Shown here piece by piece: positions 1 through 41,231 of a stretch of 64,000 nt of DNA (the first letter of the stretch is position 1; each line of letters starts with the position of its first letter). Below the pieces are notes generated by a model. The model saw only the letters and a program-made list of their open reading frames with translations. It did not search any database and had not been told where the DNA came from. Source of the DNA: Alphaproteobacteria bacterium (lineage in GTDB: Bacteria; Pseudomonadota; Alphaproteobacteria; MPNO01; UBA830); the NCBI GenBank assembly GCA_964291215.2, contig OZ219791.1, positions 2,336,001 through 2,400,000 on the forward strand, given 5' to 3'. The translations under genes and the position numbers were made by a program.

Positions 1-1313
1 CCGCGTTGTCTTGTCGTCTGTGGCTGAAGGCCGTTGCCCGGCCTTCTCGACAGTGATCTCGTAGTGCCGGGCGACGGTAGAGAAGCGCTGCTTGAGACCG
101 CTCTCCGGCACCTTGTCGTGGCGCCGGCCTTTGGCCGAGAGGTGGAGCTTTGCCGCCTCGAAGCCCTGCGGCTAGGAATGGCGTCCTCGGCCCTCTTCCT
201 GCTCTCCACGCCGCGCCATCCTCGCTGGCAAGGCGCCTGCATCTCGTGGTTGGTGATCAGCCTTGGGCTCACCCTCGGGCGGCCTGGCGCCACAGCTGAC
301 CGCGATCCAGCCGTGCTCGCCACGCGATGTTCGCCTCGGTGCCGGCGTCCATGACTACCGTCGGCTTCGCCGCCCGCCTCCAGCCTCGACAGCGCATCCG
401 TGCCCGGTCACGTTGCCCCGCAAGACCTCGCAACTGCGCGGAAAGCCCGCGCCGCGCAAGCGTGGGGCAATCATTGCGCTTCTGCTTCGAGCGCCCGAAG
501 CGGAGAAGCTTGCCGTCGGCGCGGCCGTGAACATTGGTGAGATCGTAAAAGGCGATGGTGTCGGGGATGCAGCGCGCGCTCGCGGTTGAACAGCTCCTGG
601 CGGCCCGGTGACGCAGGTCGCCGATGCGGTACAACGACTTGCGCGCCTTGCGCTCCAGATCCGGAAGCTCCGCGGTCGCGCTGTCATGGCGCAGCCAGCG
701 CTCGCTGGCGGATCATCCTGGCGACGATCAGCGCACTCGCGATGCTGAGGTCGTGAAGCCGAGATCGTGCCTCGAGGCACAGGCAGCCGACCGAGCGCGG
801 GTTCTCGAGGCTGTCGAGGTTGACGGTCGCAATTTGCGTGCGTCTTCCTCCGGAGCGTCGGCGCGGAACCTCCGGGCCCCTGTTGACGATGTCCTGCGGC
901 CTGCACGCGGCTTCGAACAGCGGCCGTGGAGCAGCGCTTCGGCGGCAACCTCCTTCCAGTTCTTGCGCGCCACCGGACAGTCGGTGCCGAGGCAGGGTGC
1001 GCTGCCTGACCTTGTCGCCGATGCGCTGAGAAAGCACGAGCCGGTGGACGGGTTTGCCGTCTGCGGTGCTGCGGGTTTTGGTTGCCCTGATGAACATGTT
1101 GTCTGGAGCCTTTTGTATTGACGAGGCTCCGGATATACCGGGTTTGGCGGCGGGGTCGAGCGAATCGGCAACATTCTGGCACTACAGTGGCCATCCTAGG
1201 CAGGGAATCGCAAATACCGTGGGGAACCGGAAAATATACCCCAACATATGGTGTCTCTGACGGGGTGCCGCATAAATTTCGCCTTCAACTGACGCAAAAA
1301 GTGCCAACTTGGG
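1..1313 (-). mobile_element. Degenerate IS1634-family element (runs off the left edge of the window)
   Basis: Fragmented transposase starting MFIRATKTRS...HRLVLSQRIGDKVRQRTL; near-identical inverted copy at 16846-18160; end sequence GCAAAAAGTGCCAACTTGG at ~1294-1312 matches the TIR at 16846 and 19907. Confidence 0.8.
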
Positions 1314-2100
1314 GGAAGAAGGGTGCCGACCAAGCATTCCGCAACGATGTCGGTCTCTCTTGGCAGCCCGGAGACATGCTGCCGGACTTCGAATCGTCGT
1401 AGGACGACAGGAACTCTGAGCCGTCAGAACTCACCGCGCAAACCATAGCCGCGGTATGGAAGGCCTGCTGATCCGGAAGATACCGGTACTCGGGCCCGAC
1501 GGGACAGGCTCGCCGCGCCATGCAGCCGCGCAGACGGCAGTTTTCTCCCTCGTCGCTCCCCACGTGAGTGACGCAGGAAACCGCATCGAACCGATCCGGC
1601 AGAAAGGCATCCGCCGGGCATACAGTCAGGCATGGTCTCCGCACGCAACTGTCACACGGGCTCGCAAGGAACTCGCACTCTGGAAGTTCGACTCGTTCCC
1701 GAAACAATAGCGCCGCCCGATAGACGTGCCACAATCCGAAATCCGGGTGGATCAGTATGCCGATCGGTGATCGGTGGACAGGTTCCGCCCTCATGGCCCA
1801 GTCCTGGAGCGGCGGATAAGACGGCCCGTCCTCTGGAAAAATCACACCATCGGCGCCGACCTCCCGGGCGGCTTCCCTGATCTTCGGGCGAATCCACCGG
1901 TTGAGGGGATGGGCTATGGCCATATCGGCACCGGCGGTAAACGAGTGCCAGAGATCCGGTCCGGCATTGCCGACGAGCACTAGCGTTCCTGCGGACGTGC
2001 CATCCTCTAGATCCGGCACGAGGTCCGACTCCTCGGGATAAAAGCCACCGCGGACGCAGAGTCCATCAGGCCTGAGCATGTCGTCCAATACGTCCAGCAT
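1285..2100 (-). CDS. 4Fe-4S ferredoxin-like protein (distant QueG-like fold); C-terminus reads on into the IS1634 end
   Basis: MLDVLDDMLRPDGL...LVLVGNAG...SPIGILIHPDFGLWHVYRAAL...PCDSCVRRPCLTVCP...GCMARRACPVG; start set at ATG 2100. Confidence 0.75.
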   Translation of the reverse strand: MLDVLDDMLRPDGLCVRGGFYPEESDLVPDLEDGTSAGTLVLVGNAGPDLWHSFTAGADMAIAHPLNRWIRPKIREAAREVGADGVIFPEDGPSYPPLQDWAMRAEPVHRSPIGILIHPDFGLWHVYRAALLFRERVELPECEFLASPCDSCVRRPCLTVCPADAFLPDRFDAVSCVTHVGSDEGENCRLRGCMARRACPVGPEYRYLPDQQAFHTAAMVCAVSSDGSEFLSSYDDSKSGSMSPGCQERPTSLRNAWSAPFFPQVGTFCVS

Positions 2101-2200
2101 CCGTTCCCGACCGGGGGGCGGCAGCCCTCCATGAGCCGCCAGACCCGGATTTGTCCCCTGGAAATTTTTGTCCGGCGCAACAATGCGGTACTCTTCCGGA

Positions 2201-3016: not shown

Positions 3017-3052
3017 CTGTGGAGGCCGGCCGATGCCGCACAGGCTGCAGAG

Positions 3053-6692: not shown

Positions 6693-6695
6693 GAT

Positions 6696-7223: not shown

Positions 7224-7237
7224 GTCTTCGCCGGTCT

Positions 7238-7585: not shown

Positions 7586-7725
7586 GGGGGATCACTCCTG
7601 CAACGCGACAGCGTCAATTGATGCCGACGGGGCCGCCGAAAGTCAACAGGATCCGCCTTCCGCACGTTGAACCGAAACCCAAGAACCTTGCCCTGGATCA
7701 GTGGTGCAAGGCCGCTCGCCCGGCG

Positions 7726-8899: not shown

Positions 8900-9608
8900 T
8901 CAGCCGCTGTTTCTCAGACCGGCGGAGATCCCGTTGATGGTAAGCAACAGGCCGCGCAGGACATTCGGATCATCCGGCTGTTCGCGGTACGCCTTCAGCA
9001 GTTCGATCTGCATGTGATTCAGCGGATCGATATATGCGAGGCGGTTGTGGAGCGACAGCGTCAGCAGGAGGCTGCTTGCAAGCAACCGGTCGGTCTTTGA
9101 TATCTCCAGAAGGGCCTGAACCGTCTCCGTTCTCTCGTCGTCAATACGGGAGAAGATCAGGTCGCGAAGTGCCGGGTCGGGAACGAGCGTCACGTAGCGC
9201 GACGCGATCGCCATGTTGGTCTTGGAGAGGACCATGTCCATGTTCGACAGCAAGGTGCGGAAGAACGGCCATTCCCGGTACATCTCGCGCAGAAGCGCGA
9301 TACCGCTGGCGCCGTCTTCGGCAAACCAGCGGGACACGGCGGTCCCGAATCCGAACCATCCGGGCAGCATGACGCGGCACTGGGACCAGTTGAACACCCA
9401 CGGAATCGCGCGCAGGTCCCTGATCTGGCCGCCGGCTTTCCTCGATGCCGGTCGAGAGCCGATGTTCAGCCTCGCGATCTCATTGACCACGGTCGACGCA
9501 CGAAAGAACTCGACGAAGCCCGGCGTGTCGTGAACGAGGCCGCAGTAGCCTGCGTAGGCGTATTCCGAAAGGCCGTCCATTGCGTCGACATAGGAATCCG
9601 GAACCTTA
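8900..9608 (-). pseudogene. ppc: Phosphoenolpyruvate carboxylase, 3' remnant (~235 codons)
   Basis: [38 protein letters not shown]-terminal signature; cut by an IS end at 9609. Confidence 0.9.
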
Positions 9609-10766
9609 GGGATATCGCCAAAATCAATTGATTGTTATGTCCGTGGTGTGAGGGTGTAGTTCCACTCGCCGTGGAACGGGTCTCTGCGGATGGCGAGGCC
9701 GTCCATCTGATCGTCGTTGACCTTGACCCCGAGCGGATAGCTGTTCTCGTCGAGGTGCGAGCGTATGGTGAGGCCGGTGGTGGTCGCGGCGATCAGCTTG
9801 ACGATCACCTGATAGCTGACGAGGGGCCGGCCGCGCCAGTTCCGGGTGATATGGCAGAACATCCGGTGCTCGATCTTGTTCCACTTTCCGGGCGGGAAGC
9901 GGGCCACCGACACCTTCAACCCGAGTTCGTCGGCGAGGTGCTGCAGCTTCCACAGCCGGTTGCGGCTGCTTTTGGAGCCGTCGGCGGTGATCAGCAGGCA
10001 TCGGGATAGAGCGGCCGGCCCATCTGCCGCCACCAGCGGCCTCGACCGCGAACGCCGCCGTGTCGTGCCCGACGCTGACCCGGCCGGCGTTGGCGGTGAG
10101 ATCGTAGACCCCGCAGGGGATCCGAGCTCCGGATCGGGGAAGTCACGCACGTTGACGGCTTCAGGGTCGCCCTCGGGGCCCGGCCGCCATTGCGGTACTG
10201 GATTTCCTTCTTCTTCGTGTCACCACAGGCTGGCCCAGCCTCCGGAACGCGCGCACCCGGCGCGTCGGAACTGCGGTCCGGATGCTGGCGGCCTTCCAGC
10301 GTCTTGCGATTGGCCTGGAGGCTGTACCCCGGATCGTGGAGCAGCCGGTTCACCGTGCGCTCGCTGACGCCCTCGACCGCAAGACGGTCCGCCAGCGGCA
10401 CTGTGACACCGCAGCGAACTCTCCGGATCGCCGCGCGTCATCGGTTCAAGCTCGCGCCGCCACCAACTCCGGATCCGTCACCCGCTTGCGCCCGCCGCCG
10501 GGGCGACGCAAACGTCCTGAAGGAATCTCACTCGAAGACTCCGAATCAAGCTCCTCCGGCGTGAACGGTGCCCATCCCCGTCGCCTCGGCCACTCGCCTC
10601 CGCGCCCGATAACACGGGCATCCGTCGCCGCCCACAGGCGCCGCGCACGTTCGTTCAGAACCGGACGCAACACCACAAATTTGGATCGCAGCGTATCGAC
10701 TATCGCTTCCATGACATCATCGACAGCAGATCCACACCAAAAAACAAACTAATTTGGCGAGAGACA
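9609..10766 (-). mobile_element. Degenerate ISAzo13-family element
   Basis: Fragments LNERARRLWAA, YSLQANRKT, KWNKIEHRMFCHITRNWRGRPL, FHGEWNY; imperfect TIRs (TCGCCAAA core); TTA on both flanks; many frameshifts. Confidence 0.85.
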
Positions 10767-12267: not shown

Positions 12268-12280
12268 AACCCGCCTGCCG

Positions 12281-16545: not shown

Positions 16546-16845
16546 AGCGTTAGCACATTTTCTGACGGGGATTCGGTTGGTTCCGCTCGAATTGTTTGAT
16601 GGTCTGGGGTGTGTGCCCCTCAACCAACTTGCAAAAAGTCGGCTGAGGGGCTTGTCTCCGCGATGACAAAACCACAGGAGATAAGTCAATGTCGCACGAT
16701 TCCTTCCCGGGGTCCACGCTTTCCTGCGCCCATGCACGATGATCCCATGCCAATTCGGAGACGCGAAATCCGAATGCGTTGGGGCTCGCGTCATCACAGA
16801 TCGCTCCCTTGATTACAATTTTCATGCCGAGAAGGCCCCATCAAC

Positions 16846-19800
16846 CCAAGTTGGCATTTTTGCGTCAGTTGAAGGGGAAATTTATGCGGCTGCCTCACTA
16901 GATATACCATATGTTGGCATTTTTATGATACTGCCTACTATATTTTGATTGCGTGTCCGGGGTGGGCGCGGTAGTGCCAGAATATTACCGATTCGCTCGA
17001 CCCCGCCGCCAAACCCGGTATATCCGGAGCCTCGTCAACACAAAAGGCTCCAGACAACATGTTCATCAGGGCAACCAAAACCCACAGCACCGCAGACGAC
17101 AAACCCGTCCACCGGCTCGTGCTTTCTCAACGCATCGGCGACAAGGTCAGGCAGCGCACCCTGCCTCGGCACCGACCATCCGGTGGCGCGCAAGAACCGG
17201 AAGGAGGTTGCCGCCGAAGCGCTGGCCGCCCGCCGCTGTTCGAAGCCGCGTGCAGGCCGCAGCCGAGGACATCGTCAACAGGAGCCCGGAGGTTCCGCGC
17301 CGACGCTCTGGAGGAAGACGCACGCAAATTGCGACCGTCAACCTCGACAGCCTCGAGCACGAGAACCCGCGCTCGGTCGGCTGCCTGTGCCTCGAGGCGC
17401 GATCTCGGCTTCACGACCTCGGCATCACGAGTGCGTTGATCGTCGCCAGGATGATCCGGCCAGCGAGCGCGAACTGCGCGATGACAGCGCGACCGCGGAG
17501 CTTCCGGAGGGCAAGTCGCGCAAGACGCTGTACCGCATCGGCGACCTGCGTCACCGGGCCGCCAGGAGCTGTTCAACCACGAGCGCGCGCTGCATCCTCG
17601 ATACCATCGCTTTTTGCGATCTCACCAATGTTCACGGCCGCGCCGACGGCAAGCTCCCCCGCTTCGGGCGCTCGAAGCGCAATGATTGCCCCACGCTTGC
17701 GCGGCGCGGGCTTTCGGCGCAGTTGCGAGGTCTTGCGGGGCAACGTGGCCGGGCACGGATGCGCTGATGAGGCTGGGGGCGGGCGGTGAAGCCGACGGTA
17801 GTCATGGACGCCGGCACCGAGGCGAACATCGCGTGGCGAGCACGGCTGGGTCGCGGGCGGCGCCGCCCGAGGGTGGGCCCGAGGCTGATCACCAACCACG
17901 AGGTGCAGGCGCCAGCGAGGATGGCGCGGCGTGGTCAGCGAGAGCAGGAGGAGGGCCGAAGACGCCATTCCTGGCCGCAGGGCTTCGAGGCGGCAAAGCT
18001 CCACCTCTCGGCCAAAGGCCGGCGCCACGACAAGGTGCCGGAGAGCGGTCTCAAGCAGCGCTTCTCTACCGTCGCCCGGCACTACGAGATCACTGTCGAG
18101 AAGGCCGGGCAACGGCCTTCAGCCACAGACGACAAGACAACGCGGGCGCCTGCGCACCAGCGACCGGGAGACCGTCCTTATATGACCAGGTTTTGTCCCC
18201 TTGATGATGAAATCATCCACAGCAGTTGGGGGCGGGAAAATGTGGATAACCTCGACTATGGGAGAGCTATGGTTGCAGAGAGATTCCGCTCCCCTGTGTG
18301 AGAACATACAGGGGAGCGGGGATCAAACGATCTCCGCGGAGGTTGCCGTTCCGTCCTTGGCTTTATAGAGCCGTTCCCGAGCGTGGCAACCTCCTTTGGC
18401 GTCCCTTGCGTCCTGAATGGATGTTTGAGTTTGAACCGTATCATCATAAGGCGAGGAACGATGGTCAAGGTAGTAGCAGGGGTCAGCCAGTCTGGACATC
18501 TGGGGCGTCGTTTTACGAACGACGCCACGGGCACGTGGCTTCGCAGCCTCGAGGTAACCCGTGTGGTGGGCGATAGGTCGCTATCACCGCAAGGAGTGTC
18601 TTCATGACCGGGGCTTCGAGGTTGTCCTGCCCGTTGAGGGCTTCGCCGAGGCTTTGGGCCAACCGCGTTGACGCCAAGATCGGCACGGTGCGATCTCGAG
18701 CCTGTGGCCCCTCAGGAAGCCTTCCTCAACTGCCTAGGGGATCTCCTGGTATCGCGCTTGTCGACGCCAAGCAAGTGGCAGATGAGGTGGATGGCGAGAC
18801 CGTCACAAGGGCTTCGGCGGCCGACCTCGATGATTGCCGGCGCGGCGATCAAAGCGGTGATCGCCGGTGATCCCGAGCAGAGGTACCCTGACCTCGATCC
18901 AGTGACCGCCGCAGCCCTTCTTTGTTGGATGCCCGAACTCGGCAGTCTCGACCGTCGGCAGGCGGCAGCCTTGATCGGGGTGGCGCCGATGGCCAACGAC
19001 CACGGTGCTCGGCATATCCGAGGCGGGCGCCGGAGGCCACGTGATCTCCTGGCCGCGACCTCGGCAGCACGCTTCAACGCGGATCTGGTGTGCCACAAGG
19101 CCCACAAAGTCGCCATTGTCGCCGTGATGCGCAAGCTCTGGCGAACACCTTGCTGCGACAGCAGCGTTGCTGGTCGACCGAAGCACCGGTGAGTGAGCGA
19201 AGGAGACACGGCCCTGCCGAGAGCGCGATCGGGACTGTCTCGACAGTCTCCCTCTACGACACGACTTGGGGAGAATGTCTGCAGATCATCGTCGAGGCCG
19301 ACATCGAGGAGATCGAACCGCCTTGGGACACCTGGAACCCGGATGGTCACGTGCCCGGGGACGGCAAGGTAGCCGCGTTCACGTGACCAATGGACGGCAA
19401 CCCGCCGCCGGGACCACAAGCTTCATGTCGCCTCGCTCGCAGAGCAAATCCCACACCGCTTGTGGACAACCACAGAAAACATCACCACAGACACCCGCAA
19501 AAACCTTGCCAAGAAACATGGATGCTCGGGACACGGATATCGAGGCCACCTTCCGTTCATTGAAATCCGAGCCCGGATTGCGCCCGGCCAGCGCATCGCC
19601 GCCCACCTGTTGATCGCCGTGCTCGCCGCGGTGCATCTGATCCCCGCGCGGGGCATCGACAAGTGCCGGACATCAATCCGCGCGGAACCAGGGTCACCAC
19701 GCGCCTGCGCGCATTGATCGTCAACCGACAGGACACGCGCCGCCGAGATTGCCGAAATCTCCTCGGCGGCTGGTGTCGAACCCGCCGCATGAGGAGCCGC

Positions 19801-19907
19801 CTCGCAAGCTGACAGAATTCAACAGAATGTAGTGCCATGTTGAAATCGGCCGACAAAAAATCGCGCAGCGTGATAAAAATTCCAGGCCGCAAAAAGTGCC
19901 AACTTGG
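16846..19907 (+). mobile_element. Degenerate IS1634-family element interrupted by a nested IS110-containing element
   Basis: TIRs CCAAGTTGGCATTTTTGCG (16846) / CGCAAAAAGTGCCAACTTGG (19907); N-terminal half 17059-18170; C-terminal DIEATFRSLKSE...HLLIAVLA at ~19535-19630. Confidence 0.85.
18172..19531 (+). mobile_element. Duplicated element with degenerate IS110-family transposase, copy A
   Basis: GVAPMAND...HIRGGRRRPR...AARFN...KVAIVAVMRKL (IS110 C-terminal domain); direct repeat of 20341-21774. Confidence 0.8.
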
Positions 19908-20340: not shown

Positions 20341-21774
20341 ACGTCCCTTATATGACTAGGTTTTGTCCCCTTGATGATGAAATCATCCACAGCAGTTGGG
20401 GGCGGGAAAATGTGGATAACCTCGACTATGGGAGAGCTATGGTTGCAAAGAGATTCCGCTCCCCTGTGTGAGAACGTACAGGGGAGCGGGGATCAAACGA
20501 TCTCCGCGGAGGTTGCCGTTCCGTCCTTGGCTTTATAGAGCCGTTCCCGAGCGTGGCAACCTCCTTTGGCGTCCCTTGCGTCCTGAATGGATGCTTGGGT
20601 TTGAACCGTATCATCATAAGGCGAGGAACAAGGGACGATTGTTAAGGTAGTAGCAGGGGTCAGCCAGTCTGGACATCTGGGGCGTCGTTTTACGAACGAC
20701 GCCACGGGCACGTGGCTTCGCAGCCTCGAGGTAACCCGTGTGGTGGGCGACAGGCCGCTATCACCGCAAGGTTCACCAGTGTCTTCATGACCGGGGCTTC
20801 GAGGTTGTCCTGCCCGTTGAGGGCTTCGCCGAGGCTTTGGGCCAACCGCGTTGACGCGCTGGCCAAGATCGGCACGGTGCTCGGCGATCTCGAGCCTGTG
20901 GCTCCTCAGGAAGCCTTCCTCAACTGCCTGGGGGATCTCCTAGTATCGCGCGCCGCGCTTGTCGACGTGCGGACCAAGTTGAGGCAAGTGGCAGATGAGG
21001 TGGATGGCGAGACCGTCACAAGGGCTTCGGCGGCCGATCTCGATGACCGCATTGCCGGTGCGGCGATCAAAGCGGTGATCGCCGGTGATCCCGAGCAGAG
21101 GTACCCTGACCTCGATCCCCGGTCCAGTGACCGCCGCAGCCCTTCTTTGTTGGATGCCCGAACTCGGCAGCGTCGGCAGCCTTGATCGGGGTGGCGCCGA
21201 TGGCCAACGACAGTGGCCACGGTGCTCGGCATATCCGAGGCGGGCGCCGGAGGCCACGTGATCTCCTGGCCGCGACCTCGGCAGCACGCTTCAACGCGGA
21301 TCTGGTGTTCGAACGCCACAAGACCGCCGGCAAGGCCCACAAAGTCGCCATTGTCGCCGTGATGCGCAAGCTCTGGCGAACACCTTGCTGCGACAGCAGC
21401 GTTGCTGGTCGACCGAAGCACCGGTGAGTGAGCGAAGGAGACACGGCCCTCACCCCTGCCGAGAGCGCGATCGGGACTGTATCGACAGTCTCCCTACTAC
21501 GACACGACTTGGGGAGAATGTCTGCAGATCATCGTCGAGGCCGACATCGAGGAGATCGAACCGCCTTGGGACACCTGGAACCCGGACGGTCACGTGCCCG
21601 GGGGCGGCAAGGTAGCCGCGTTCACGTGACCAATGGACGGCAACCCGCCGCCGGGACCACAAGCTTCATGTCGCCTCGATCGCAGGGCAAATCCCACACC
21701 GCTTGTGGACAACCACAGAAAACATCACCGCAGACACCCGCAAAAACCTTGCCAGGAAACATGGATGCTCGGGA
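20341..21774 (+). mobile_element. Duplicated element with degenerate IS110-family transposase, copy B
   Basis: Same ends as copy A (GTCC(C)TTATATGA... / ...GATGCTCGGGA) in a different context. Confidence 0.8.
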
Positions 21775-25087: not shown

Positions 25088-27569
25088 GGTACTGTAACTT
25101 GATGTCTGGAAATTTGTCTGAGGTTTGCGCTTTGAGGCGTTTCACTGGGGGGCTAGTAGTCCACCGGCATTGTATTGATGGTTTTTTTGTGGGTAATATT
25201 TTCGTGTCGGCGTTCGTTGGAATCTGGACAGTGCCGATATCCACACGGGCAAGATGCCGAACAGGCAGGCAGCCGCAGCCCCATGTGCAGGTCCGGACAA
25301 CGGGAGCGGCGCAATGACAGGAGCAACGTATATGGCCAACTCTCGGGGCAGGAAGCTCTACCGCGTGACCCTTTCGGCGCAGGAGCGCCGGGATCTGAAG
25401 GCGATCGGGCACCGGGGCTGCCTGGCGCCGGGCACAAATCCTGATGCTGAGGGGGCGCTTGTCGATGCCGACATTGCGCAAGGGCTGGGCATCGGCACGG
25501 CGACGGTCGAGCGTTTGCGCAAGCGCTGCGTCCTGGAGGGGCTGGACGCCGCCCTCAGCCGCAAGGAGCAGGTGAACCGTCGGCCGAAACGGGGCGATGG
25601 AGGCGAAGTTGGTCGCCCTGTTCGTCCCCGCCCGAGGGCTGTGGACGCTGAAGCTGCTCGCCGGCCGTCTGGTGGAGATGGAAATCGTCGAGCGCATTTC
25701 GGAAGAAACGGTCAGGAAGACGCTAAAAAAAGAGATCAAGCCGTGGCTGAAGCAGTACTGGTGCATTCCACCGCACCGGAGCGCACAGTTCGTGGCGGCA
25801 GATGTGCTTGACATTTATCAGCGGGACTTTGCCAAGGACGAGGTGCTGAGACCAGCCGGCAGCAGACGAAGGAAACCCGCATCCCCCGTCCTCCGGTCAG
25901 CCGGAGGTGGTCGACTATGAATATGAGCGCAACGGCACGGCCAACCTCTTCATGGCCTTTGCGCCCAACGAGAACTGGCGCACGGTGAAAGTCACCGATC
26001 GCCGCGGGACCGGGCACACTTCATCCGGGAGCTTGCCGACGACCATTTCCCCGACAGGAAGATCGTGCTGGACAATCTGAACACGCACAGTCGCTGTATG
26101 AAGCCTTCGAGCCCGAGGAGGCGAGGCGGGTGCGAAAGCGGTTCGAGTTTCGCTATACGCCGAAGCACGGAAGCTGGCTCAACATGGCCGAGATCGGTGC
26201 GCTGTCGCGGCAGTGCCTTCGGCGACGCATTCCCGACCGCGACACCATGCTGCGGGAGACGGCGGCGTGGGTGGAACGGCGCAATGCGGCCGATGTCACT
26301 GTCGACTGGCGTTTCACGACGAAGGATACCCGAACGAAACTGAAGTCTCTATATCCGTCAATCCAATAATGCCAGACTACTAGCCCCCCAGTGAAACGCG
26401 GCGCCATCGTGCTATCCCATGGAGTTGTAAAACCTTCATGGAGGAAGCGAATAGACCTGCGACACACTACGACGATTGAGGCCGTTTTGGAATATCTGAT
26501 CGCAAACGGAGCAACGGATCTGGGGCGGGTCTTTGGCCAGCTCTTCGAGCTTGCGATGCAAATCGAGCGCGAGCAGCACTTGAAAGCGGGCCACCGGACG
26601 CCGGAGCGACAGGGCTATGCCAACGGCTACAAGCGGATCGACACCCCCACTGTTACCGTTCAGGTGCCAAACGGTCACGGGGACGACCCGTCCCCAGTCG
26701 CTTGAACGCGGCCAGCGATCTTCTCGCGCCGTAGCCGAGATGTACATCAAGGGTGTTTCCACACGGCAGGATGTAATGCGCGAGTTCGGGAGCCTGTCCT
26801 CTTCTCAGGTCAGCCGGGCCACCAGGTTGCTCGATGAAGAACTCACCGCCTGGCGCAACCGGCCCCTGATGAAATACCTGATCCTGGATGCGCGCTACGA
26901 AAAAGCCCGCCATGACGGCGTTGTGCGCGATGTCGCAGTGCTCTCGGCCATCGGAATAGGGGCTGCAGGCACGTTCTGGGGCTTTCTGTGGCGCTCTCCG
27001 AGGCCGAGGTCCATTGGAGAGCCTTCCTGGAAAGCTTGCTAGCCCTGCATGGTACGACCTTCATCGTCTCGGATGCCGGGCTGAAAGCGGCACGACGCGC
27101 GGTGCTGGGCGCGGCGACGTGGCAGCGCTGCCAGTTCCACCTGGCACAAAACGCCGTGCACCGAACAACGACATCAGGAAACGTATTGGAAAACAGCTCG
27201 GAGCCACGCCTCCTCACCCCAAACCGCCGAGGCCGAACTGGGCGCCCTCGTGGCCAGCTATCGCGACAAGCATCCAGGCTTCCTGGCTGGAAAAGAATGC
27301 GGGGCTCGCTGTCTTCACCTTGCCCGATGCTCACCACAAGCGTATGCGAACCTCGAACGGCATCGAGCGACCGATCCAGCAAGAGCTCAAGCGGCGCACC
27401 TCCAAAGTCAGGGTCTTTCCGAACCTCGCCTCGTTGGAGCGCCTCTCAACCGCGGTCCTTGTCGAGATCGACGAAAAATGGGAAACCGAAACCAAGGCAT
27501 ACATCAAATGGGAACAGCTCGATGACTGAGAGCTTCACGACAATTTCCAGACATCAGGTTGCGTAATCT
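25088..27569 (+). mobile_element. Degenerate IS256-family element, copy 1 (carries a nested IS630)
   Basis: EMYIKGVSTR, YLILDARYEK, WQRCQFH, MRTSNGIER...KRRTSKVRVFPN; TIRs with core TGATGTCTGGAAATT; no matching TSD. Confidence 0.88.
25156..26380 (+). mobile_element. Degenerate IS630-family element
   Basis: WTLKLLA, DYEYERNGTANLF, LDNLNTH, YTPKHGSWLNMAEI, KLKSLYPS; TIRs GTAGTC...GACTAC; TA duplication. Confidence 0.88.
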
Positions 27570-30230: not shown

Positions 30231-30288
30231 GGCGTTCATACCGTTCTTAAAGGAGAACAAGTCGCAAGGTTCTTCTCGGTCCAGTCGT

Positions 30289-32821: not shown

Positions 32822-32825
32822 TGGA

Positions 32826-33413: not shown

Positions 33414-33419
33414 ATTGTA

Positions 33420-36020
33420 CCCCACTTCCAGTCTGAAGTGCAACACCCGGCCCTCATCGCAGCATGGCGATCCCACGCTAGGTTTGTTGGAAGGGTCGGT
33501 TTCGCTTGTTCAGGATGATTCGCATTTTCGCTGGCTTTTTGTGAAGCGGCGTAGTATCCGTTGTCGTGGGGGCAGCGGATTTTTTTGAGACGACTCCGGA
33601 GGGTTTTGAGCTCCGGGATGTGGTTGTGCGCCTTGCGCGGCCTGATGTCGCTGGAACCGTGTTGTTGACCGTATCTTGGTTTCAAGCAGTTTGCCGGTCG
33701 AGGTCTGCGTGTTCACCTGGCGCGGGCGGTGGATTGGCACTGCGGGCTGGCAGACGGGCGCCCTCAGCTGCGCACCCGTTGGCTGGCGCCGCGAGGAACA
33801 GTTCAGGCGGTTGCCGGGAACAACACGAGGTTTGTTGTTCCTGGTGGTCGTTTCCGGGCCTTGCCTCGTTTGCGTTGTCGCGGATGGTGCGGCGGCGACC
33901 GGGAGGCTGCCGTTGCTTGTTGCGGAGTCGTTTGTCTTGCCGACGAAGTTCAGCGGCACCATGTACAAGGCGGCGAACCGGGAGTGCGTTGGCAGGAGCT
34001 ATGCGCGCGCCAGCGGGCGCTATACCGACCGGGGAGGCGAAGGATCTTTACGTGTTTCCGCTGCGTCGCGATGTCGGCTGCGGGATCGTTCGCCGCTTCC
34101 TGTGGCGTGGGAGTTGCGGGCGCCGCTGGTCGGCGCAGGAGTTGCGCTCGATTTATCAGCGGCGCTTTCCGGCGCGCGCAGGGGCACCGCATCGCCTCGG
34201 TGCTGTGCGTGATTTTGCTGGCTTGCGAACCGGCACGGTGCGGTTGCGGCGGCGCACTACGACGCAGAAGGAGCTGGAGCAGCATGGAAGAACAGGGACA
34301 AGCCGGTCTTCAAATCGACCGTGCACCGGGTGCTGCAGAACACCGACCCGGGATGGATCGAGGATGCTCTGCGGCGCTGGGCGCAGCCGCGCCTGGAGGT
34401 CGGCAACGCGATCGCGGTCGACGGCAAGCGCATCCGCGGCGCCAACCGCACCGGCGAGGATCATTACGAGACAGTCTCGCTGGCACGGGACCGGTATGCC
34501 GGTTTCGATCCTCAACTATTCTTCCGCGTTACCCGGCGCGTCGAATTCAAGAAATCCAGAAAACGGACAACCGAATACGCCATGACCTCGGTCAAGCGCG
34601 CCTCGCCGCAACAGCTGCTCGCATGGAATCGTGGACACTGGGTAGTCGAGAGCCATCATCATGTCCGTGATGCCACCTTCCGCGAAGACGACTCCATGCT
34701 CCGAACGCGCCCGCAAACAACGCGATCACCCTCGCAATCATCATCCGCAACAAACGCAAGCTGCCCAAACCCTTCAACAGCTTCGTCGACGCCCGCCACC
34801 ACTATGCCGACAAGCGCAAGCAGGTCCTGCACGCAATCACAAGACCAGGCTGACCGCGCCTCTCTCCCCGACAGAAACTGCAAGCTTTCGAGCCCGGCAA
34901 CCAAGGCCTCTCGCTCGCCCCGGATACGCCGACCAATCGCGCTCCGCGCCGCAACAGCGCGTCAGCAAATCTCAAAATCGCAGCCTCGAACGCGTCGACC
35001 CGCGCCACGATCAGGACTCCGATCACATCACATCAACAAGCATGGGATCACCTTGCTCATCGCAGTGAGGGCCGGGTGTTGCGCAAATTTTTCCCCTCTG
35101 CCCCTCTCGATTCCGCCTGGAAACAGCTTCAGTTCCTTCAATATCGAGCTTATGCAACGCCTTTGTCGGCTTCAAGCCGCTATTTCGCCGTCGCGCGGCA
35201 TGGACCCTGCTGCACGTTGCGGCTTTGGAACATGGCGCAGATGGTCAGGGCGGTTTCACTTCAAGGTCGAACATTACCTCCGTCGGCGATCCCAAAACTT
35301 TCCGAGTGTTGAGCCGATCCTGTACCTTCTGAACATCTTCGTTGCATATCGCGCGAAAGTCCGTGCCCTTCGGGAAGTACTCCCGCACCAGGCCGTTGGT
35401 GTGCTCATTCAAGCCGCGCTCCCAAGAATGGAAAGGCTTGGCGAAGAAGAAATCTGCGTCAAGTGCTTCAGCGACACGCCTGTGGTCTGCGAGCTCTTTG
35501 CCGTTGTGATTGTGTGGACCAATAGCGCACCAGAGCCGAGCAGGCGGATCATGACCGAACCGACCGTGTCTTTCTGCCCACCCGGCAAGGCGTATTTCGT
35601 GGCACGATCAACCAGCGACACGACAGCTCCACTGTGAGCTTTGCCGATGATGGTTCCCAGTCGCCGACCCGTTTTTTTGCCTCCGCAGGGCACTCGGAAA
35701 TGTCCACAGGGACCCGGCCGGAATGGCATCCACCCTTCCAGTTCGGCTTCTTGCCGCGCCGCCGAAGCTTCTTCCACAAGACGCCCCCGGCTCTCTGATC
35801 TTCATGAATGCGATCATGGATCCGTTGCCGACCCACGGCCCTCCAGTCGAAAACGGCCGCTGATCTGCTCGGGGCCCTCCCGCAGCTTTTTCTGAGCTTC
35901 AGCCCATCGTTGAGGCGTCAACCGCCAAGAAACAGACGAGGCGGCCCTGTGTTTCTGCCATCCTTTGCGCCTGCTTGTGACGGTAACCCCGTCCCCCGGT
36001 GTTGCGCTTGATCTCCCGGA
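33420..36020 (-). mobile_element. Degenerate IS30-family element (interrupted by ISAs1)
   Basis: REIKRN, LRRRGKK, VDISE...RVGDWE, VVSLVDRATKY, GVALQTG end; left boundary approximate. Confidence 0.78.
33463..35055 (+). mobile_element. Degenerate ISAs1-family element with an N-terminal DUF4338-like region
   Basis: TIRs CATGGCGATCCCA / TGGGATCACCTTG; exact 10-bp TSD CTCATCGCAG; IAVDGKRIRGA, RGHWVVE.HHHVRDATFRED. Confidence 0.88.
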
Positions 36021-36113
36021 AAATTGTTGATCGGTCACGGCCCGGCTGCCGAGCAATCGCACCTTGTGAAAGACCGCTTTTCTGTAACGCCTCAATCTGA
36101 CATCGCTTCGTAG

Positions 36114-39100
36114 GTACTGTAACTTGATGTCTGGAAATTTGTCTGAGGTTTGCGCTTTGAGGCGTTTCACTGGGGGGCTAGCCCTGCCGTGTAGCCACAA
36201 GTTTGCTACCCAACATGTTTTTGCACCTGTTCGAGCATGTATCGCTTGCCGTCCTCGAAGCCGAATTGGTGTCCGATTCTGTGGCCGATGGTGGCTTTCG
36301 TGAGGGTTCCGTAGCCCTGCCACATGATCTGGTTTCCGGGGTCGGGCGTTCGCCCGCGGTATCCGCCGAGATGGGCGACGAGGCGGACGGCGTTCCCGAG
36401 CGTGTCGGGAGCATCGAGCCGGCTGTTGAGGGCGTAGTGACGCAGGAAGCTGAGTTCGTGATCGGTGAACAGCAGTTCGGGCTCGCACTCGGGGACCTGC
36501 CGCAGGGTCATGACCATGATGCGCGATGACGGCGGCGCGTTGCAGGCGGTGCGGAACATGAGGAACTCGGTTCGGCAGCCGGACTTGAGGACTCTGAAGA
36601 AGTCCTCGACGCCTTTGGAGGTAATATCCGATCATCTCGGCGGCGGTTGCGGCGTGGTCGACGGTGGTGAGCAGGAACCACTGGATCGGGTCCTCGTTGC
36701 CGGGCGGGTTGCGCTCGATGAGGTGGACGGCCGAGACCGGCTTCTTGACAGTGGCCGGCAGGGTGGCCTTGCAAAAGCGCAACTCGCTTTGCGCGCGCGG
36801 CTTGACCTTGCTCGACTTCCTGCGCTCGCCGAGGCGCTCGACCCGGCTCGCGGCGGGGCTGACGGTCGCGAACAGCTTCCGTTCGCCGGCCAGGCAGCGG
36901 TCGTCCGCACCAGCAGTTCGACCCCCGGCGCTGGGCATCGAACAGACAGTCGGCCTCGCACACCGCGATCACCCGCGTCAGCGCGCGCGTCGCCCGGAGC
37001 GTGTCCTCAAGCGCCGGGTCTTGCACGTGCGGTGACCGAGGCGCAGCACGCGGCAGCCCGTTCACCGCAAGCGTCAGGTGCAATCCCAGGGCGCCGGTTT
37101 GGTTCTTGCCGATGATCTGCAGGCCATCGGTGTACGGACGACGCGTGAAGTTCAGATCGGTGCCATCGCGAGCACCGTCGACTGTCCGCGCATGCCCGTG
37201 CGCTCGCGGCGCGAGGATGTTCTCGACCGTCACGTCCGCAGGATGCTCGATCAGTCGGTAGAAACCGTTCACCGCAGCTTCGTCGCTCTCGACATTGCGC
37301 GCGCCCTGGATACGCCAGCGTCGCGCTCTTGACCAGCCGTCAACCGCTTGTCGCCCAACTGCGCACCTCCAAACTCGTTCACCGCCCACACGCCAAGCCC
37401 CTCGCCCGGATCAAGCGCCGGCGCCGCCTCCGGAACCCCCAGACGCCGCCGCGTACATGAATTCACCGGCCGCGGTTCTCGCGATCCTGACGGCCGCGCC
37501 CCGCCGTCGCGCCAAGAAGTTCGCCGCACGCAGGCACGCCCCCTGATCCTCGAGAAACGTCTCGACAAGCCACGGCTGAAAACCGTAACGCGCCTCGAAG
37601 TCCCCCGCCGCAGAACACGCCCCAGCACATGGCTGGCAAGGTTGGCAACACCCGGCCGGATCAGGAAACGGCTCAGAACCCGGTCAAGATTGTCCCGCCG
37701 CTGCGCTTCGTCCCACCCCCGGTCGCGCGCCGACAACCGCAGCGGCAGAAAACCCCGCGGCGCCCAAAAGACCATGCTCGGAGCCAACGAGATAGCGCAG
37801 CCGGCAAACGTCGTCACGCGGATGCTCGTATGCCATCAGCGTGTTCCACACCCGGCGGCCGGCGCGCGTGCCGCAATCTCAAACCTCCGAAAGCCGGTCC
37901 GGAACTCCCTCCGCAGGCGCTATCGGCGTCCCCAGAAGCGACGGCCGCACCGCCGCGGCGGTGGAAGGACAATCACTTCCGAGCGCGCCTCCAGAGCCCG
38001 CAAAGCCTTCAGACAACCGGCCCCGCCGGTCCCTGAATCCTCGCACAGACGGCGGCGCGTGGCGGCTGCCAAACCGCTCCCGCGCCAGAATCGCGGCAAT
38101 CCGGGGCTCCGCCGCGCGTGGACTGGATCTGTGACTGTGCCATGCCGCGACTCTTCGCGCCGGAGTTGTCCAGTGGGTCTTTTGCTACCCGAGCCGCTGC
38201 ACCCGCGCTGGCTGCTCAAGCCGGCGACAACAGCCAGACCGTGCCCAAAATCCCGCCAACATGGTAGGCGCGGCGGGCATCGCCAAAACCATTGCTTGGT
38301 AGATTTATGTCTACACGGCAGGGCTAGCCCCCCCCAGTGAAACGCGGCGCCATCGTGCTATCCCATGGAGTTGAAAAACATTCATGGAGGAAGCGAATGG
38401 AGCTGCGACACACTACGACGATTGAGGCCGTTTTGGAACATCTGATCGCAAACGGAGCAACGGATCTGGGGCGGGTCTTTGGTCAGCTCTTCGAGCTTGC
38501 GATGCAAATCGAGCGCGAGCAGTACTTGAAAGCGGGCCACCGGACACCGGAACGACAGGGCTATGCCAACGGCTACAAGCGGATCGACACCCCCCTGTTG
38601 CCGTTCAGGTGCCAAAGACGGCCGGTCACGGGGACGATCCGTTCTATCCCCAGTCGCTTGAACGCGGCCAGCGATCTTCTCGCGCCGTAGCCGAGATGTA
38701 CATCAAGGGTGTTTCCACGCGGCAGGATGTAATGCGCGAGTTCGGGAGCCTGTCCTCTTCTCAGGGGGCCACCAGGTTGCTCGATGAAGAACTCGCCGCC
38801 TGGCGCAACCGGCTCCTTGGGCTGATGAAATACCTGATCCTGGATGCGCGCTACGAAAAAGCCCGCCATGACGGCGTTGTGCGCGATGTTGCAGTGCTCT
38901 CGGCCATCGGAATAGGGGCTGCAGGCACGTTCTGGGGCTCTCTGTGGCGCTCTCCGAGGCCGAGGTCCATTGGAGAGCCTTCCTGGAAAGCTTGCTAGCC
39001 CTGCATGGTACGACCTTCATCGTCTCGGATGACCATGCTGGGCTGAAAGCAGCACGACGCGCGGTGCTGGGCGCGGCGACATGGCAGCGCTGCCAGTTCC

Positions 39101-39525
39101 ACTTGGCGCAAAACGCCGTGCACCGAACAACGACATCAGGAAACGTATTGGAAAACAGCTCGGAGCCATGCGTCCTCACTCCAAACCGCCGAGGCTGAAC
39201 TGGGCGCCCTCGTGGCCAGCTATCGCGACAAGCATCCAGGCTTCCTGGCTGGAAAAGAATGCGGGGCTCGCTGTCTTCACCTTGCCCGATGCTCACCGCA
39301 AACGTATGCGAACCTCGAACGGCATCGAGCGGCCGATCCAGCAAGAGCTCAAGCGGCGCACCTCCAAAGTCAGGGTCTTTCCAAACCTCGCCTCGTTGGA
39401 GCGCCTCTCAACCGCGGTCCTCATCGACGAAAAATGGGAAACCGAAACCAAGGCATACATCAAATGGGAACAGCTCGATGACTGAGAGCTTCACGACAAT
39501 TTCCAGACATCAGGTTGCGTAATCT
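36114..39525 (+). mobile_element. Degenerate IS256-family element, copy 2 (carries a nested IS4)
   Basis: Direct repeat of 25088-27569; flanked by CTTCGTAG(G) duplication at 36106 and 39526. Confidence 0.88.
36184..38321 (-). mobile_element. Degenerate IS4-family (Tn5-like) element with a DUF4338-like region
   Basis: TIRs CTGCCGTGTAG; palindromic TSD GGCTAGCC; SRFLIRPGVANLASHVLG, EFGGAQLGDKRL, IQWFLLTT, EDFFRVLKSGC, VAHLGGY. Confidence 0.82.
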
Positions 39526-39707
39526 CTTCGTAGGCCAGGTGACGGTAGCCTTTGGACATGAACAAGCTCCCTCCATCTTGTACAGGAACTCTCACCGCTA
39601 CCGCTCCGCAACATCATGCGTCTAAAAACACATGGCCACAGCCCATCATGTGTTGCACTTCACTATGGAACGGGGGGGGGGGGTATTATATCTCACATTC
39701 TATCGAG

Positions 39708-41231
39708 GTAACTGCTCACCCCTTGGTTCCGGCTTGATGTCGGGGTAGAGTAATGAACGGGTTTTCGTGGAGATTTGACACTGCAGGCCGATTCGTTTAG
39801 TGGTGGTCATCGAGAACGACGGGGACCGCCAGTGGGCTACTTTGGATCGAAGGCGACGAGCGGGCTGTGCCAGCTGCTTCCGGGGCTCCAGCCTCCGCAT
39901 GATCTGTATGTGGAAACGCATCTCGGAGGCGGCGCGCTGATGAAGCGCAAGGCCGGGTGATGGCGACGGGCGGCGCGCGAGGAGTTCGAAGCGGCCAAGA
40001 CCGCGGCGCTGCCGGCAAGGTGGCGGAAGAGGCCGTGATCCGCGTCCTCGTCATCCTGCTCGACATCATCATCGTCGTCCTTCTGGAGAAGACCACGCAC
40101 GAGCCGGAACTCCGGTCTGCCGCCGTCACAGACGGACGAGAGCGTGCCGGGAGCAACGGCCCGAAGCCGAACCGGCAGATGGGCGACAACCTGCGCAAGA
40201 CCATCGTCGAGGAGACGGTCGCGGCCTGCGACGCCTGCGGCGCTGACATCGACGGCCCCGTCGATCGGGAGCGCCGCGTCCTCTATGACATCGTGTTCGA
40301 GGTCGTCGAGCGCCGCGCCGAGATCAAGGAATGCCCGAAGTGCAAGGCCCGGGGCCGGTTCCCCGACAACATCCCGTGCAGTACGGCATTCAGGCCCTCG
40401 TCATCAACCTGCTGGTCGCCCAGATGCTGTCCCTGCACCGTCGCGCTCGTGCAGGCGATCTCCGGCATCAAGCTCTCCGAGGCAACCTGCCTCGGCTATG
40501 CTTTCACGATGTGTCATGGGAGGAGGCCGCCGTGGCGTACCTCCTGCAACGCCCGATGTCGACGATTTCGGATCAACAGTAAGTGGCTCCATGTCGTGGG
40601 ACCCTGACGTGTAAGTTCCCGCACCGCAAGCGCGGGCAAGAGATCGGCATCATCCCGTGTTACAAGGGCGTCCTGACTGCTGGGCCTCGTACATGGGCTA
40701 TGACCAATGTAGCCACCAGCTGTGCGGCAGCCACCTGCTGCGCGAACTGACCTTTGTCGTCGAGGCTACCGCGCGACTGATGAAGAGCCTGCTCCGCGAG
40801 GTCTGCCACAAGGTCAACAAGAGCGCATCCAGGACCCTGAACGACGCCGGGCCGGGCGCAAGCGCTACCGCACCATCAGGGCGCCAGGGAACTGCCCGAC
40901 ATCCCGACGAAAGGAAAACGTGGACGCAAGTCCGACGCGCACAACCTGCACGAACGTCTCGTGAAACACGAAAACCTGCGCTTCACAGACGACCCTGATG
41001 TCAGCTTCACCAACAATGCCGGAGAACAGAAAATCAGGATGGCAAAGGTCAAGGTGTCCGGATGCTTCCGCTCCACGCAAAAGCATGGTGCCGGAGCTCA
41101 AGCTACCTCACCTCCATGGCCGCACTCGGCTACAACCCACTCGTCGCCACCCAGATCGCCCTCGATGGAAAAGCCGCAGACATCATCAACGAGCACTATG
41201 AATCAGAACCCAACAAGGGGTGAGTAGATAC
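39708..41231 (+). mobile_element. Degenerate IS66-family element
   Basis: TIRs GTAACTGCTCACCCC / GGGGTGAGTAGATAC; exact 8-bp TSD CTATCGAG; CDACG...CPKC, QLCGSHLLREL, FTNNAGEQKIRMAKVKVSGCFRS. Confidence 0.9.

What the first reader, a model, noticed from the sequence alone, without database searches (positions are those of the whole stretch)
1..41231. Repeat-restricted 5-7 bp microdeletion signature: possible RIP-like silencing of IS elements
Seen: about ten IS families here are riddled with short deletions, and paired copies carry many copy-specific deletions, most often 6 bp and often between short direct repeats. IS1634: CTCGAAGC[AGAAGC]GCAATG (~474-491 rc vs 17671) and CCTCGAG[CACGAG]AACC (17351 vs ~800 rc). 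IS256: GGATG[ACCATG]C (39027 vs 27071). IS110: GTTGACGC[GCTGGC]CAAG (20850 vs 18667). Each copy lacks pieces that its partner retains. In contrast, single-copy dead DNA is nearly clean (ppc 3' remnant ~235 open codons, integrase one frameshift), host and defence genes are intact, and one IS630 is pristine. Known: neutral bacterial decay is deletion-biased but should not distinguish multicopy from single-copy pseudogenes. Inference: a repeat- or transposon-targeted cut plus microhomology-mediated repair process may be inactivating IS elements.
Basis: partly seen in the sequence, partly recalled or inferred. Interest (0 to 1): 0.82.

Follow-up and report, generated by a model that had tools for sequence, protein, structure and literature searches.

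The report
Six-base deletion drive erodes bacterial transposons
In an uncultured alphaproteobacterium, dead jumping-gene copies share hundreds of 5-7-base deletions that become denser the more copies a family has, likely because copies overwrite one another in short patches and the shorter version usually wins, which would let a genome wreck its most abundant parasites without any targeting system.

Summary
Real, not an assembly artefact, but neither repeat-restricted nor copy-specific. Against intact transposases, IS256 and IS66 copies carry 486 and 539 deletions versus 1 and 7 insertions, nearly all 5-7 bp or multiples. The same peak occurs thinly in single-copy DNA (160 versus 28 against the sister genome), 15-30 times less densely. 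Copies are fine mosaics of shared alleles. 171 of 330 deletion alleles, but 17 of 335 polarised SNPs, reach half the copies. Indels per 100 SNPs rise from 0.9 to 27.8 with copy number. A drift model with biased conversion reproduces this; unbiased conversion does not. Best reading: a lineage-level ~6-bp deletion mutation amplified by deletion-biased gene conversion between copies. No Ku, Piwi, NucS or IS-matching spacer was found; mutS, mutL and recA are intact. A distant congener shows the signature on an unrelated IS66. Closest known: deletion-biased nonallelic conversion in flies and primates; my searches found no bacterial case. The enzyme and the 6±1 size are unexplained. The scan earlier noted only single shared IS deletions elsewhere.

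The parts
1..1313 (-). Decayed IS1634-type element (5' part; about 26 copies in the genome)
   Evidence: intact homologue in G004 with a 640-codon frame; this copy 51 gaps, 346 bp lost
8900..9607 (-). Control: single-copy 3' remnant of ppc beside an IS; no 5-7 bp deletion against G001
   Evidence: PF00311; only a 1-bp gap at 8902
9608..10762 (-). Decayed ISAzo13-family element (about 20 copies); 18 deletions of 5 bp or more against the family union
   Evidence: PF07592
16844..18178 (+). Decayed IS1634-type element; 34 deletions of 5 bp or more against the family union; its 3' end resumes near 19590-19850 after an inserted IS110
18173..19531 (+).
20346..21774 (+). Second decayed IS110-type copy
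25153..26379 (.). Decayed IS (55 full copies; family not confirmed); 16 deletions of 5 bp or more
26384..27568 (+). Decayed IS256 (77 full copies); 16 deletions of 5 bp or more
   Evidence: PF00872
27939..30228 (+). Low-copy (3-5) integrase plus IS91-type element with fewer 5-7 bp deletions
   Evidence: PF04986
33463..35055 (.). Repeat of about 50 copies, family not identified and not analysed as a full-length family
35066..36115 (.). Decayed IS (46 full copies; family not confirmed); 8 deletions of 5 bp or more
36176..38327 (.). Element with 4 near-identical copies plus more distant paralogues; its private 7-bp deletion is shared with two distant paralogues but not with its 3 siblings
38330..39524 (+). 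Second decayed IS256; 14 deletions (83 bp by sum of listed gaps 6,6,7,12,6,6,6,7,6,7,7,5,6,6 = 93 bp) against intact 393-aa transposases
39708..41231 (+). Decayed IS66-type transposase element (123 full copies); 34 deletions of 5 bp or more
41344..42512 (+). Control: IS630-family element without the signature; 2-4 diverged copies in the assembly, likely a recent arrival
   Evidence: PF13358, HTH domains; about 35-fold depth and a joint across the site in runs X12 and X14

Best explanation
Deletions of 5-7 bp occur thinly across this genome and are shared at high frequency among copies of repeated elements, most likely because copies exchange short patches by gene conversion in which the shorter allele usually wins. 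Steps: (1) Shown: a lineage-level excess of ~6-bp deletions in single-copy DNA. (2) Shown: IS families arrived intact, multiplied and died; their copies are now mosaics with linkage lost within about 25-40 bp. (3) Shown: deletion alleles, unlike SNPs in the same copies, have risen to high frequency, and their density grows with copy number. (4) Inferred: a deletion that arises in any one of n copies is copied to the others with a bias of roughly 0.5-0.9, so the load scales with n. (5) Inferred, untested: in a heteroduplex between a long and a short copy, MutS/MutL handles mismatches and loops of up to about 4 nt, while loops of 5 nt or more escape it and are removed from the looped strand, or short single-stranded donors carrying a deletion anneal better than donors carrying the extra bases. 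The enzyme and the upper limit near 7 bp are not identified.
For: Polarity: 486 deletions and 1 insertion in 31 of 77 IS256 copies, 539 and 7 in 23 of 123 IS66 copies, against intact proteins; 176 and 0 for homologues with 4 or more copies of intact G001/G004 ORFs. Pieces kept by at least one copy cover 393 of 393 IS256 and 486 of 490 IS66 codons, with radical change at only 2 of 193 and 5 of 199 conserved codons. Mosaicism: 21-79% of deletion pairs fail a rooted compatibility test; SNP-SNP r2 falls from 0.72 (1-3 bp) to 0.08 (26-40 bp); nearest neighbours differ by a median of 13.5-31 SNPs. Drive: deletion frequencies [75,50,34,45,47,79] versus polarised SNPs [284,20,14,4,6,7], Fisher p 4e-45, sites not fully independent; log-likelihood gain about 190 for strong drive at 5-7 bp but about 3 at 1 bp. 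Dose: 0.9, 4.7, 9.2, 11.6, 18.3, 22.4, 27.8 indels per 100 SNPs for 2 to 65+ copies at 3-4% SNP divergence. Load 13-16 per kb in IS256/IS66 versus 0.45-0.87 per kb in 31 broken single-copy genes and 0.7 per kb in non-coding DNA. A Moran model with bias 0.5-0.9 gives the observed spectrum and 10-40 per kb; bias 0 gives 0.6-1.3 per kb. Deleted copies have lower diversity at nearby SNPs (0.32-0.36 versus 0.39-0.47 within 40 bp, none beyond 80 bp). Common deletions avoid each other within 16 bp (35 versus 60.5 expected). mutS, mutL, recA and recO are intact. Bacterial MMR repairs loops efficiently up to about 4 nt (PMC2504288, passages).
Against: The direction of single conversion events was not observed; that needs orthologous copies in several assembled strains. 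Deletions are less linked to neighbouring SNPs (r2 0.05 at 4-8 bp) than SNPs are to each other (0.41), which recurrent deletion would also give. Common alleles have more microhomology than rare ones (2.13 versus 1.25 nt), slightly more stable local hairpins (p 0.002, not corrected for GC) and cluster more than random (23 vs 27, 41 vs 51, 31 vs 41 clusters, alignment twins included), so some site preference exists. A MutS cut-off alone predicts 5 > 6 > 7 > 8, not a peak at 6 with a steep fall at 8. The 2-4 bp class also favours drive (gain about 21). Low-copy classes include working paralogues, which steepens the dose curve. The model parameters (conversion 500-1500 times mutation, age 1.5-3%) were chosen, not fitted, and a first simulation with slow conversion (150 times mutation, bias up to 0.3) gave only 2-8 per kb. 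No gene that would cause the bias was found.
Confidence: 0.66

Rival explanations
1. RIP-like defence: repeated DNA is recognised and cut at preferred sites, and each copy is repaired anew with loss of about 6 bp, so shared alleles are recurrences.
For: Strong copy-number dependence; very narrow size; weak linkage of deletions to adjacent SNPs; several overlapping alleles at some sites; microhomology twice expectation; private deletion:SNP ratio in IS (58:1355, 4.3 per 100) somewhat above single-copy estimates (about 1.3-3 per 100, my arithmetic).
Against: 51 of 110 common alleles have 0-1 nt of microhomology yet identical ends in many copies. No 4-mer enriched after correction. Rare alleles not significantly drawn to common sites. 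No Ku, Piwi, NucS or EndoV and no matching spacer. SNPs are shuffled too, so conversion is needed in any case. The number of distinct alleles in IS256 (about 40) is about what the private-deletion rate predicts for 77 copies (my arithmetic).
Confidence: 0.16
2. No bias: a past burst of deletion mutation, then spread of already deleted templates by transposition in trans and by unbiased conversion.
For: Young families lack the signature (an IS66 with 10 copies at 99.7-100% identity and no gaps; the window IS630), so age matters. Nested composites recur at several loci.
Against: Transposition gives tree-like sharing, but the patterns are mosaic. A burst would hit single-copy dead DNA equally, yet no broken single-copy gene exceeds about 3 per kb. 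SNPs of the same copies stay rare. Unbiased conversion gives 0.6-1.3 per kb. Strains X13 and X14 hold further deletion alleles of the 36176 element.
Confidence: 0.09
3. Assembly or polishing artefact in repeats.
For: Only contigs, not raw reads, could be laid; exact contigs inside high-copy IS are short.
Against: Both alleles appear in contigs of three runs. Retained pieces rebuild exact protein lengths. The signature occurs in single-copy DNA and in an independently assembled congener on an unrelated element. Young repeats in the same assembly and IS1634 copies in G003 are clean. Linkage decays far below read length.
Confidence: 0.04
4. Selection at the cell level: hosts in which more copies carry deletions are favoured because broken transposases do less harm.
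For: Established reasoning that active IS are costly (general knowledge).
Against: Copies carry 5-31 deletions, so later ones hit dead genes. In-frame 6-bp alleles are the commonest. 1-bp frameshifts, equally inactivating, look near neutral. Selection would not move an allele between loci.
Confidence: 0.05

Closest known systems
[quoted passage not shown]
   Same: Paralogues copy length differences onto each other, deletions win, and neutral paralogues shrink together.
   Different: Here it is a bacterium, families have up to 120+ copies, the size window is narrow (5-7 bp), the bias appears much stronger than their 3.4:1, and copies have lost 9-21% of their length at 2-4% SNP divergence. Their direct three-species test could not be run here.
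Gene conversion among dead IS copies in Wolbachia wBm (Cordaux 2009; paper not seen, only a reference entry in PMC3205602 and a passage in PMC3196728)
   Same: Non-functional bacterial IS copies exchange sequence by conversion.
   Different: Described as keeping copies highly similar; the passages seen mention no deletion bias, size peak or fine mosaicism.
Repeat-induced point mutation (RIP) of fungi (features recalled)
   Same: Damage depends on being repeated, affects unrelated element classes, and disables transposons.
   Different: RIP makes new C-to-T changes in each copy through a dedicated methyltransferase-like protein before meiosis. Here the lesions are deletions, shared between copies, with no dedicated gene found.
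Short-patch double illegitimate recombination in Acinetobacter baylyi (bioRxiv 10.1101/2023.11.22.568220; abstract, introduction and first results read)
   Same: Short single strands from elsewhere in the genome are built in at the fork and give microindels; a possible route for short-tract transfer. G000 has no dprA match.
   Different: SPDIR products vary widely in size and use heterologous donors, and it is rare when recA and recJ are present, as they are here.
Ordinary deletion bias in bacterial pseudogenes (PMC6054270; methods section and passages read)
   Same: Deletions exceed insertions and about 40% lie at microhomologies.
   Different: There sizes follow a power law with a 3n excess (3, 6, 9, 12). 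Here 3 and 9 are scarce, 5 and 7 are common, and density depends on copy number.

Membership tests
Deletion-biased nonallelic gene conversion | Paralogues exchange sequence without reciprocal crossover, giving mosaic copies | tested here: met
   Compatibility test, linkage decay and no near-identical neighbours; non-reciprocity is inferred, not observed
Deletion-biased nonallelic gene conversion | Deleted allele spreads more than the retained allele | tested here: met
   Frequency spectra of deletions versus SNPs, with polarity from intact proteins
Deletion-biased nonallelic gene conversion | Direct count of conversion gains versus losses in orthologous paralogues across sister genomes | not testable with these tools
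   No assembled sister strain with the same insertions; runs X13 and X14 are short contigs only
Deletion-biased nonallelic gene conversion | Conversion much faster than point mutation | tested here: inconclusive
   One composite has 3 SNPs in 1979 bp of core and 50 SNPs plus 13 indels in 1437 bp of arms, but the core may have entered three host copies separately
Deletion-biased nonallelic gene conversion | Cooperative shrinkage of neutral paralogues | tested here: met
   Mean 105 bp lost from IS256 and 188 bp from IS66 coding regions; about 330 of 1550 bp from IS1634
Fungal RIP | Acts according to repetition, not element type | tested here: met
   Dose curve; DDE, IS110, IS91, group II intron and serine recombinase elements affected
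Fungal RIP | New C-to-T mutations made independently in each copy | tested here: not met
   Lesions are deletions shared between copies; private SNPs are about 0.23% per copy
Fungal RIP | Dedicated RID-type protein and sexual-cycle timing | not tested
   Recalled feature; not applicable to a bacterium and not searched
Ku/LigD end joining or microhomology end joining | Ku present | tested here: not met
   0 of 5 genomes; LigD not searched; only a 35-residue AEP-TOTE fragment
Ku/LigD end joining or microhomology end joining | Junctions mostly at microhomology | tested here: inconclusive
   Mean 1.66 versus 0.81 nt, but 149 of 275 have 0-1 nt; single-copy 1.64 versus 0.89
Guide-directed cutting (Argonaute or CRISPR) | PIWI-domain gene, or spacers matching the elements | tested here: not met
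   PF02171 0 of 5 genomes (short Argonautes may be missed); 0 of 126 spacer calls (two arrays, one called twice) hit outside their array; cas1 is present twice
SPDIR | Raised by loss of RecA, ssDNA exonucleases or DprA | tested here: inconclusive
   recA, recJ, xseA, recO intact; dprA not found in G000, but congener copies are non-syntenic, about 30% identical between G001 and G003, and mostly under the TIGR00732 cut-off
SPDIR | Microindels of highly variable size and sequence | tested here: not met
   Clean deletions of 5-7 bp and multiples
MutS loop-size escape | Intact mutS and mutL, scarcity of 2-4 nt events, onset at 5 nt | tested here: met
   limit of about 4 nt from PMC2504288
MutS loop-size escape | Steady decline with size above the cut-off | tested here: not met
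   Peak at 6, steep fall at 8, second peak at 12-14

The most novel reading that the evidence does not exclude
This genus has a homology-dependent genome defence, a bacterial counterpart of RIP: an unknown nuclease measures and removes about 6 nt at loops or pairing intermediates between repeated sequences, both creating the deletions and driving them through every multi-copy element, so that any element that multiplies is erased in proportion to its success.
Probability: 0.17. Interest if true: 0.93.

Novelty: new variant of a known kind. Interest (0 to 1): 0.76.

Why it matters
Repeats make up 36% of this 6.15-Mb genome, and only 35 of 569 long high-copy segments keep a plausible reading frame of 300 codons. 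A copy-number-dependent deletion drive gives negative feedback on transposon blooms: the more an element multiplies, the faster its whole family is ruined. That bears on how IS expansions in symbiont-like genomes end and on the source of bacterial deletion bias. It also shows that pseudogene indel spectra can reflect conversion rather than mutation. The 6±1 size is a sharp fingerprint that can be scanned for in any complete genome and points to an unidentified loop-processing activity; the proteins of large-loop repair in E. coli were stated to be unknown in 2008 (PMC2504288).

Tried and rejected
Gene candidates: Ku, NucS, EndoV and Piwi not found in G000; comM not found in any of the 5 genus genomes; recJ, xseA, recO, polA, uvrD and five DEDD exonuclease matches intact. 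dprA absence is a weak lead only (9 of 25 family genomes also lack a match). The AEP-TOTE hit is a 35-residue fragment. Pfam scan of 91 of 259 G001 proteins missing from G000, from about a quarter of G001, showed no repair gene; the other 168 were not scanned. None of the 15 longest of 92 reverse-transcriptase loci looked intact. No motif and no link to SNP-rich sites. No strict periodicity, only under-representation below 16 bp. Single-copy deletions are not closer to repeats than background. Copies near each other are not more alike. The window IS DNA found no match at E 1e-30 in 25 family genomes, with 11 or fewer candidates scored each. The three-copy composite was first read as proof of in-place conversion and then downgraded. 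G003 (7 pairs, 184 SNPs), G004 (6 pairs) and G001 (4 pairs) showed 0, 0 and 1 indels of 5-7 bp, but these are small samples of mostly intact repeats. Literature searches found no report of a 5-7 bp deletion drive in bacterial IS; searches gave no direct source on oligo-recombination bias, so that point is recalled. The library lacks most subscription papers, and no supplements were read.


Full report
Setting. The window lies in G000, 6.15 Mb in 2 contigs, 64% GC, with one 16S gene and a two-piece tmRNA. The best of 80 named relatives of its tgt gene are Rhodospirillales-type alphaproteobacteria at 65-71% identity. A strain about 96-97% identical is present in one run labelled sponge metagenome (X1). 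36.5% of the genome is repeated and 28% is in five or more copies. Four congeners are held; G001 is about 93% identical in DNA. At 17 places G001 has an empty or near-empty site where G000 has repeat DNA, so at least these insertions followed the split.

The observation. Across 11 window families the distinct deletion alleles number 88, 32, 22, 18, 74, 133, 68, 25 and 14 for sizes 1-9, with a second bump at 12-13. Published bacterial pseudogenes follow a power law with a 3n excess (PMC6054270, passages); here 3 and 9 are scarce. A frameshift-aware alignment to intact proteins gave 486 deletions and 1 insertion in 31 of 77 IS256 copies (5:57, 6:295, 7:101, 8:5, 12:21) and 539 and 7 in 23 of 123 IS66 copies; each set was the 8 longest copies plus an even sample. 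All 19 IS1634 copies lack 136-461 bp against the intact G004 element (79% identity, so small gaps are noisy). Contigs of runs X12-X14 carry both alleles at IS sites at 20-100 times single-copy depth, and X12 matches the window flanks without difference. Raw reads were not available.

Not repeat-restricted. In 958 kb of single-copy alignment (66,372 SNPs, from 1.61 of about 5 Mb of G001), G000 lacks 37, 88 and 35 pieces of 5, 6 and 7 bp, and G001 lacks 17, 6 and 5; sizes 1-4 are nearly balanced. In a 1.27-Mb subset, non-coding DNA gave 65 versus 15 in 91.6 kb, and 31 of 38 candidate broken genes (7 dropped as partly repeated; some may be false calls) gave 13 deletions of 5-7 bp, or 25 of 5 bp or more, in 28.8 kb. 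Their second-position divergence exceeds the average by about 2 points, similar to the 1.6-3.7% SNP spread of the IS families. IS256 and IS66 carry 13-16 deletions per kb, 15-30 times more.

Not copy-specific. Each copy holds its own mix of a limited set of shared alleles. 21-79% of deletion pairs are incompatible with a tree, also under 200 bp apart. SNPs are shuffled as well: r2 is 0.72, 0.41, 0.21, 0.16 and 0.08 at 1-3, 4-8, 9-15, 16-25 and 26-40 bp (4 families). Nearest neighbours differ by a median of 13.5-31 SNPs, so there is little recent transposition. This needs exchange between copies in short tracts (inference). One example: the window copy of the 36176 element has a 7-bp deletion absent from its three near-identical siblings but present in two distant paralogues, and a contig of strain X13 carries two more deletions that map to those paralogues' alleles without a third one between them (my coordinate mapping).

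Deletions are driven. Pieces kept by at least one copy cover 393 of 393 IS256 and 486 of 490 IS66 codons, and only 2 of 193 and 5 of 199 conserved codons are radically changed in the majority. The founders were therefore intact and the families are young. Only 4 of 114 rare 5-7 bp insertions are tandem duplications, so they are retained ancestral sequence; this polarity is what separates drive from a folded neutral spectrum. Unfolded frequencies of 330 deletion alleles in 8 families are 75, 50, 34, 45, 47 and 79 in bins from under 0.1 to over 0.9. 335 SNPs polarised by protein conservation in 3 of those families give 284, 20, 14, 4, 6 and 7. Strong drive beats neutrality by about 190 log units for 5-7 bp, 21 for 2-4 bp, 12 for 8-14 bp and 3 for 1 bp. 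Genome-wide, in 435 sampled repeat segments, 5-7 bp indels per 100 SNPs rise from 0.9 (2 copies) to 27.8 (65 or more) at steady SNP divergence. Against intact G001/G004 ORFs the counts are 3 deletions and 1 insertion in 25.6 kb (single copy, mostly working genes), 23 and 6 in 17.0 kb (2-4 copies) and 176 and 0 in 15.7 kb (more copies). Exceptions are young or sparsely converting families: an IS66 with 10 copies at 99.7-100% identity and no gap, an IS1182-type element with few, and the window IS630. The IS630 has about 35-fold depth and a joint across its site in X12 and X14, which fits a recent arrival. A Moran model using the private deletion:SNP ratio of 4.3 per 100 gives 0.6-1.3 per kb without bias; with bias 0.5-0.9 and conversion 500-1500 times mutation it gives 10-40 per kb at 48 copies and a spectrum near 0.25, 0.15, 0.09, 0.09, 0.14, 0.26, close to the observed 0.23, 0.15, 0.10, 0.14, 0.14, 0.24. 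These parameters were chosen, not fitted; slower conversion does not reach the observed load.

Against targeted cutting, and what still favours it. Microhomology is doubled but absent or 1 nt in 149 of 275 alleles. No motif stands out. After removing alignment twins, 26 of 65 rare alleles touch a common one versus 19.7 expected. Ku, NucS, EndoV and Piwi were not found and no spacer matches an IS. DDE transposons, IS110, IS91, group II intron and serine recombinase elements are all affected. On the other side, deletions are more loosely linked to adjacent SNPs than SNPs are to each other, common alleles have more microhomology, and raw allele clusters are fewer than random. Repeated short-tract transfer during a sweep would erode linkage, but recurrence is not excluded.

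Mechanism. mutS, mutL, recA, recO, recJ, xseA, polA and uvrD are intact. Bacterial MMR repairs loops well up to about 4 nt and less well at 5-8 nt, and a separate large-loop pathway exists in E. coli (PMC2504288, passages). That fits the onset at 5 nt and the near-neutral 1-bp class. I infer that longer loops in heteroduplexes between copies are resolved by removing the looped strand, or that short single-stranded donors with a deletion pair better than those with extra bases (the latter recalled from recombineering, no source found). Under-representation of common deletions within 16 bp of each other fits a need for paired arms. Neither route explains the peak at 6 and the fall at 8, which is also visible, more broadly, in single-copy DNA; an enzyme with a fixed footprint remains possible.

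Breadth. G002, a distant congener (tgt 78% identical, 6.1 Mb), shows the same signature in degraded IS66 copies that have no match at E 1e-20 in G000: in 28 pairs, 72, 112 and 11 indels of 5, 6 and 7 bp versus 33 of 2-4 bp (pairs share copies, so counts are not independent). Four copies only lack pieces relative to the longest and are mosaic. G003, G004 and G001 showed almost none in small samples of mostly intact repeats. The process is thus present in at least two IS-rich lineages of the genus.

Comparison and verdict. It works like deletion-biased nonallelic gene conversion, described in flies and primates (PMC3280953), and has the outcome of RIP without being RIP. Conversion among dead IS is known from Wolbachia, seen here only second-hand. 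Searches found no bacterial case with a deletion bias or this size peak; the library is incomplete. I file it as a new variant of a known kind, interest 0.76: the pattern is strong, quantified and repeated in a second genome, while the enzyme is unknown and the direction of single events has not been observed.

Noticed in passing
window 60060-63981 (-): A type IIG restriction-modification gene is in two ORFs that match positions 114-1091 and 1094-1370 of one PADLOC model; split or broken, so not all defence genes here are plainly intact.
   Followed up: no
window 41344-42512: The IS630 has 2-4 diverged copies in the assembly but contigs at about 35-fold (X12) to several hundred-fold (X14) single-copy depth, and it interrupts a UvrD-like gene fragment (C2:2378634); probably active elsewhere in the community.
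   Followed up: partly
window 16844-19910: The IS110 sits inside IS1634 at the same place at about ten loci, which suggests site-specific targeting or movement as a unit.
   Followed up: no
G000 C1:204086-207517, C1:1652104-1655627, C2:1606978-1610615: Three copies of a ~60-copy group II intron reverse-transcriptase element carry the same 2-kb serine-recombinase-like insert (insert label read from its translation, not scanned).
   Followed up: partly
G001 C160 (L111) and C7 (L024): The sister genome has photosynthesis-cluster genes (PucC, protochlorophyllide reductase subunits) and a squalene-hopene cyclase/P450 cluster not found in G000.
   Followed up: no
G001 C183:34681-36220 (L146): An accessory DprA gene followed by a HAD hydrolase, in a block missing from G000; canonical dprA and comM seem absent from the genus.
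   Followed up: partly
G001 L062 and L122; G000 C2:3006093-3007458: Transposases fused to a DruA-like domain; the G000 homologue has 43 deletions of 4 bp or more in 1360 aligned bp with only 8 copies.
   Followed up: partly
IS families genome-wide: Private SNPs run toward AT 681:201 and common minor alleles 163:93; polarised AT-to-GC changes reach 10% or more in 23 of 95 cases versus 20 of 211 for GC-to-AT, a hint of mild GC-biased conversion.
   Followed up: partly
G000 C1:574247-581180 and C2:2068487-2069543: Two CRISPR arrays (95 and about 16 spacers) near cas1 genes; none matches the genome outside the arrays.
   Followed up: yes
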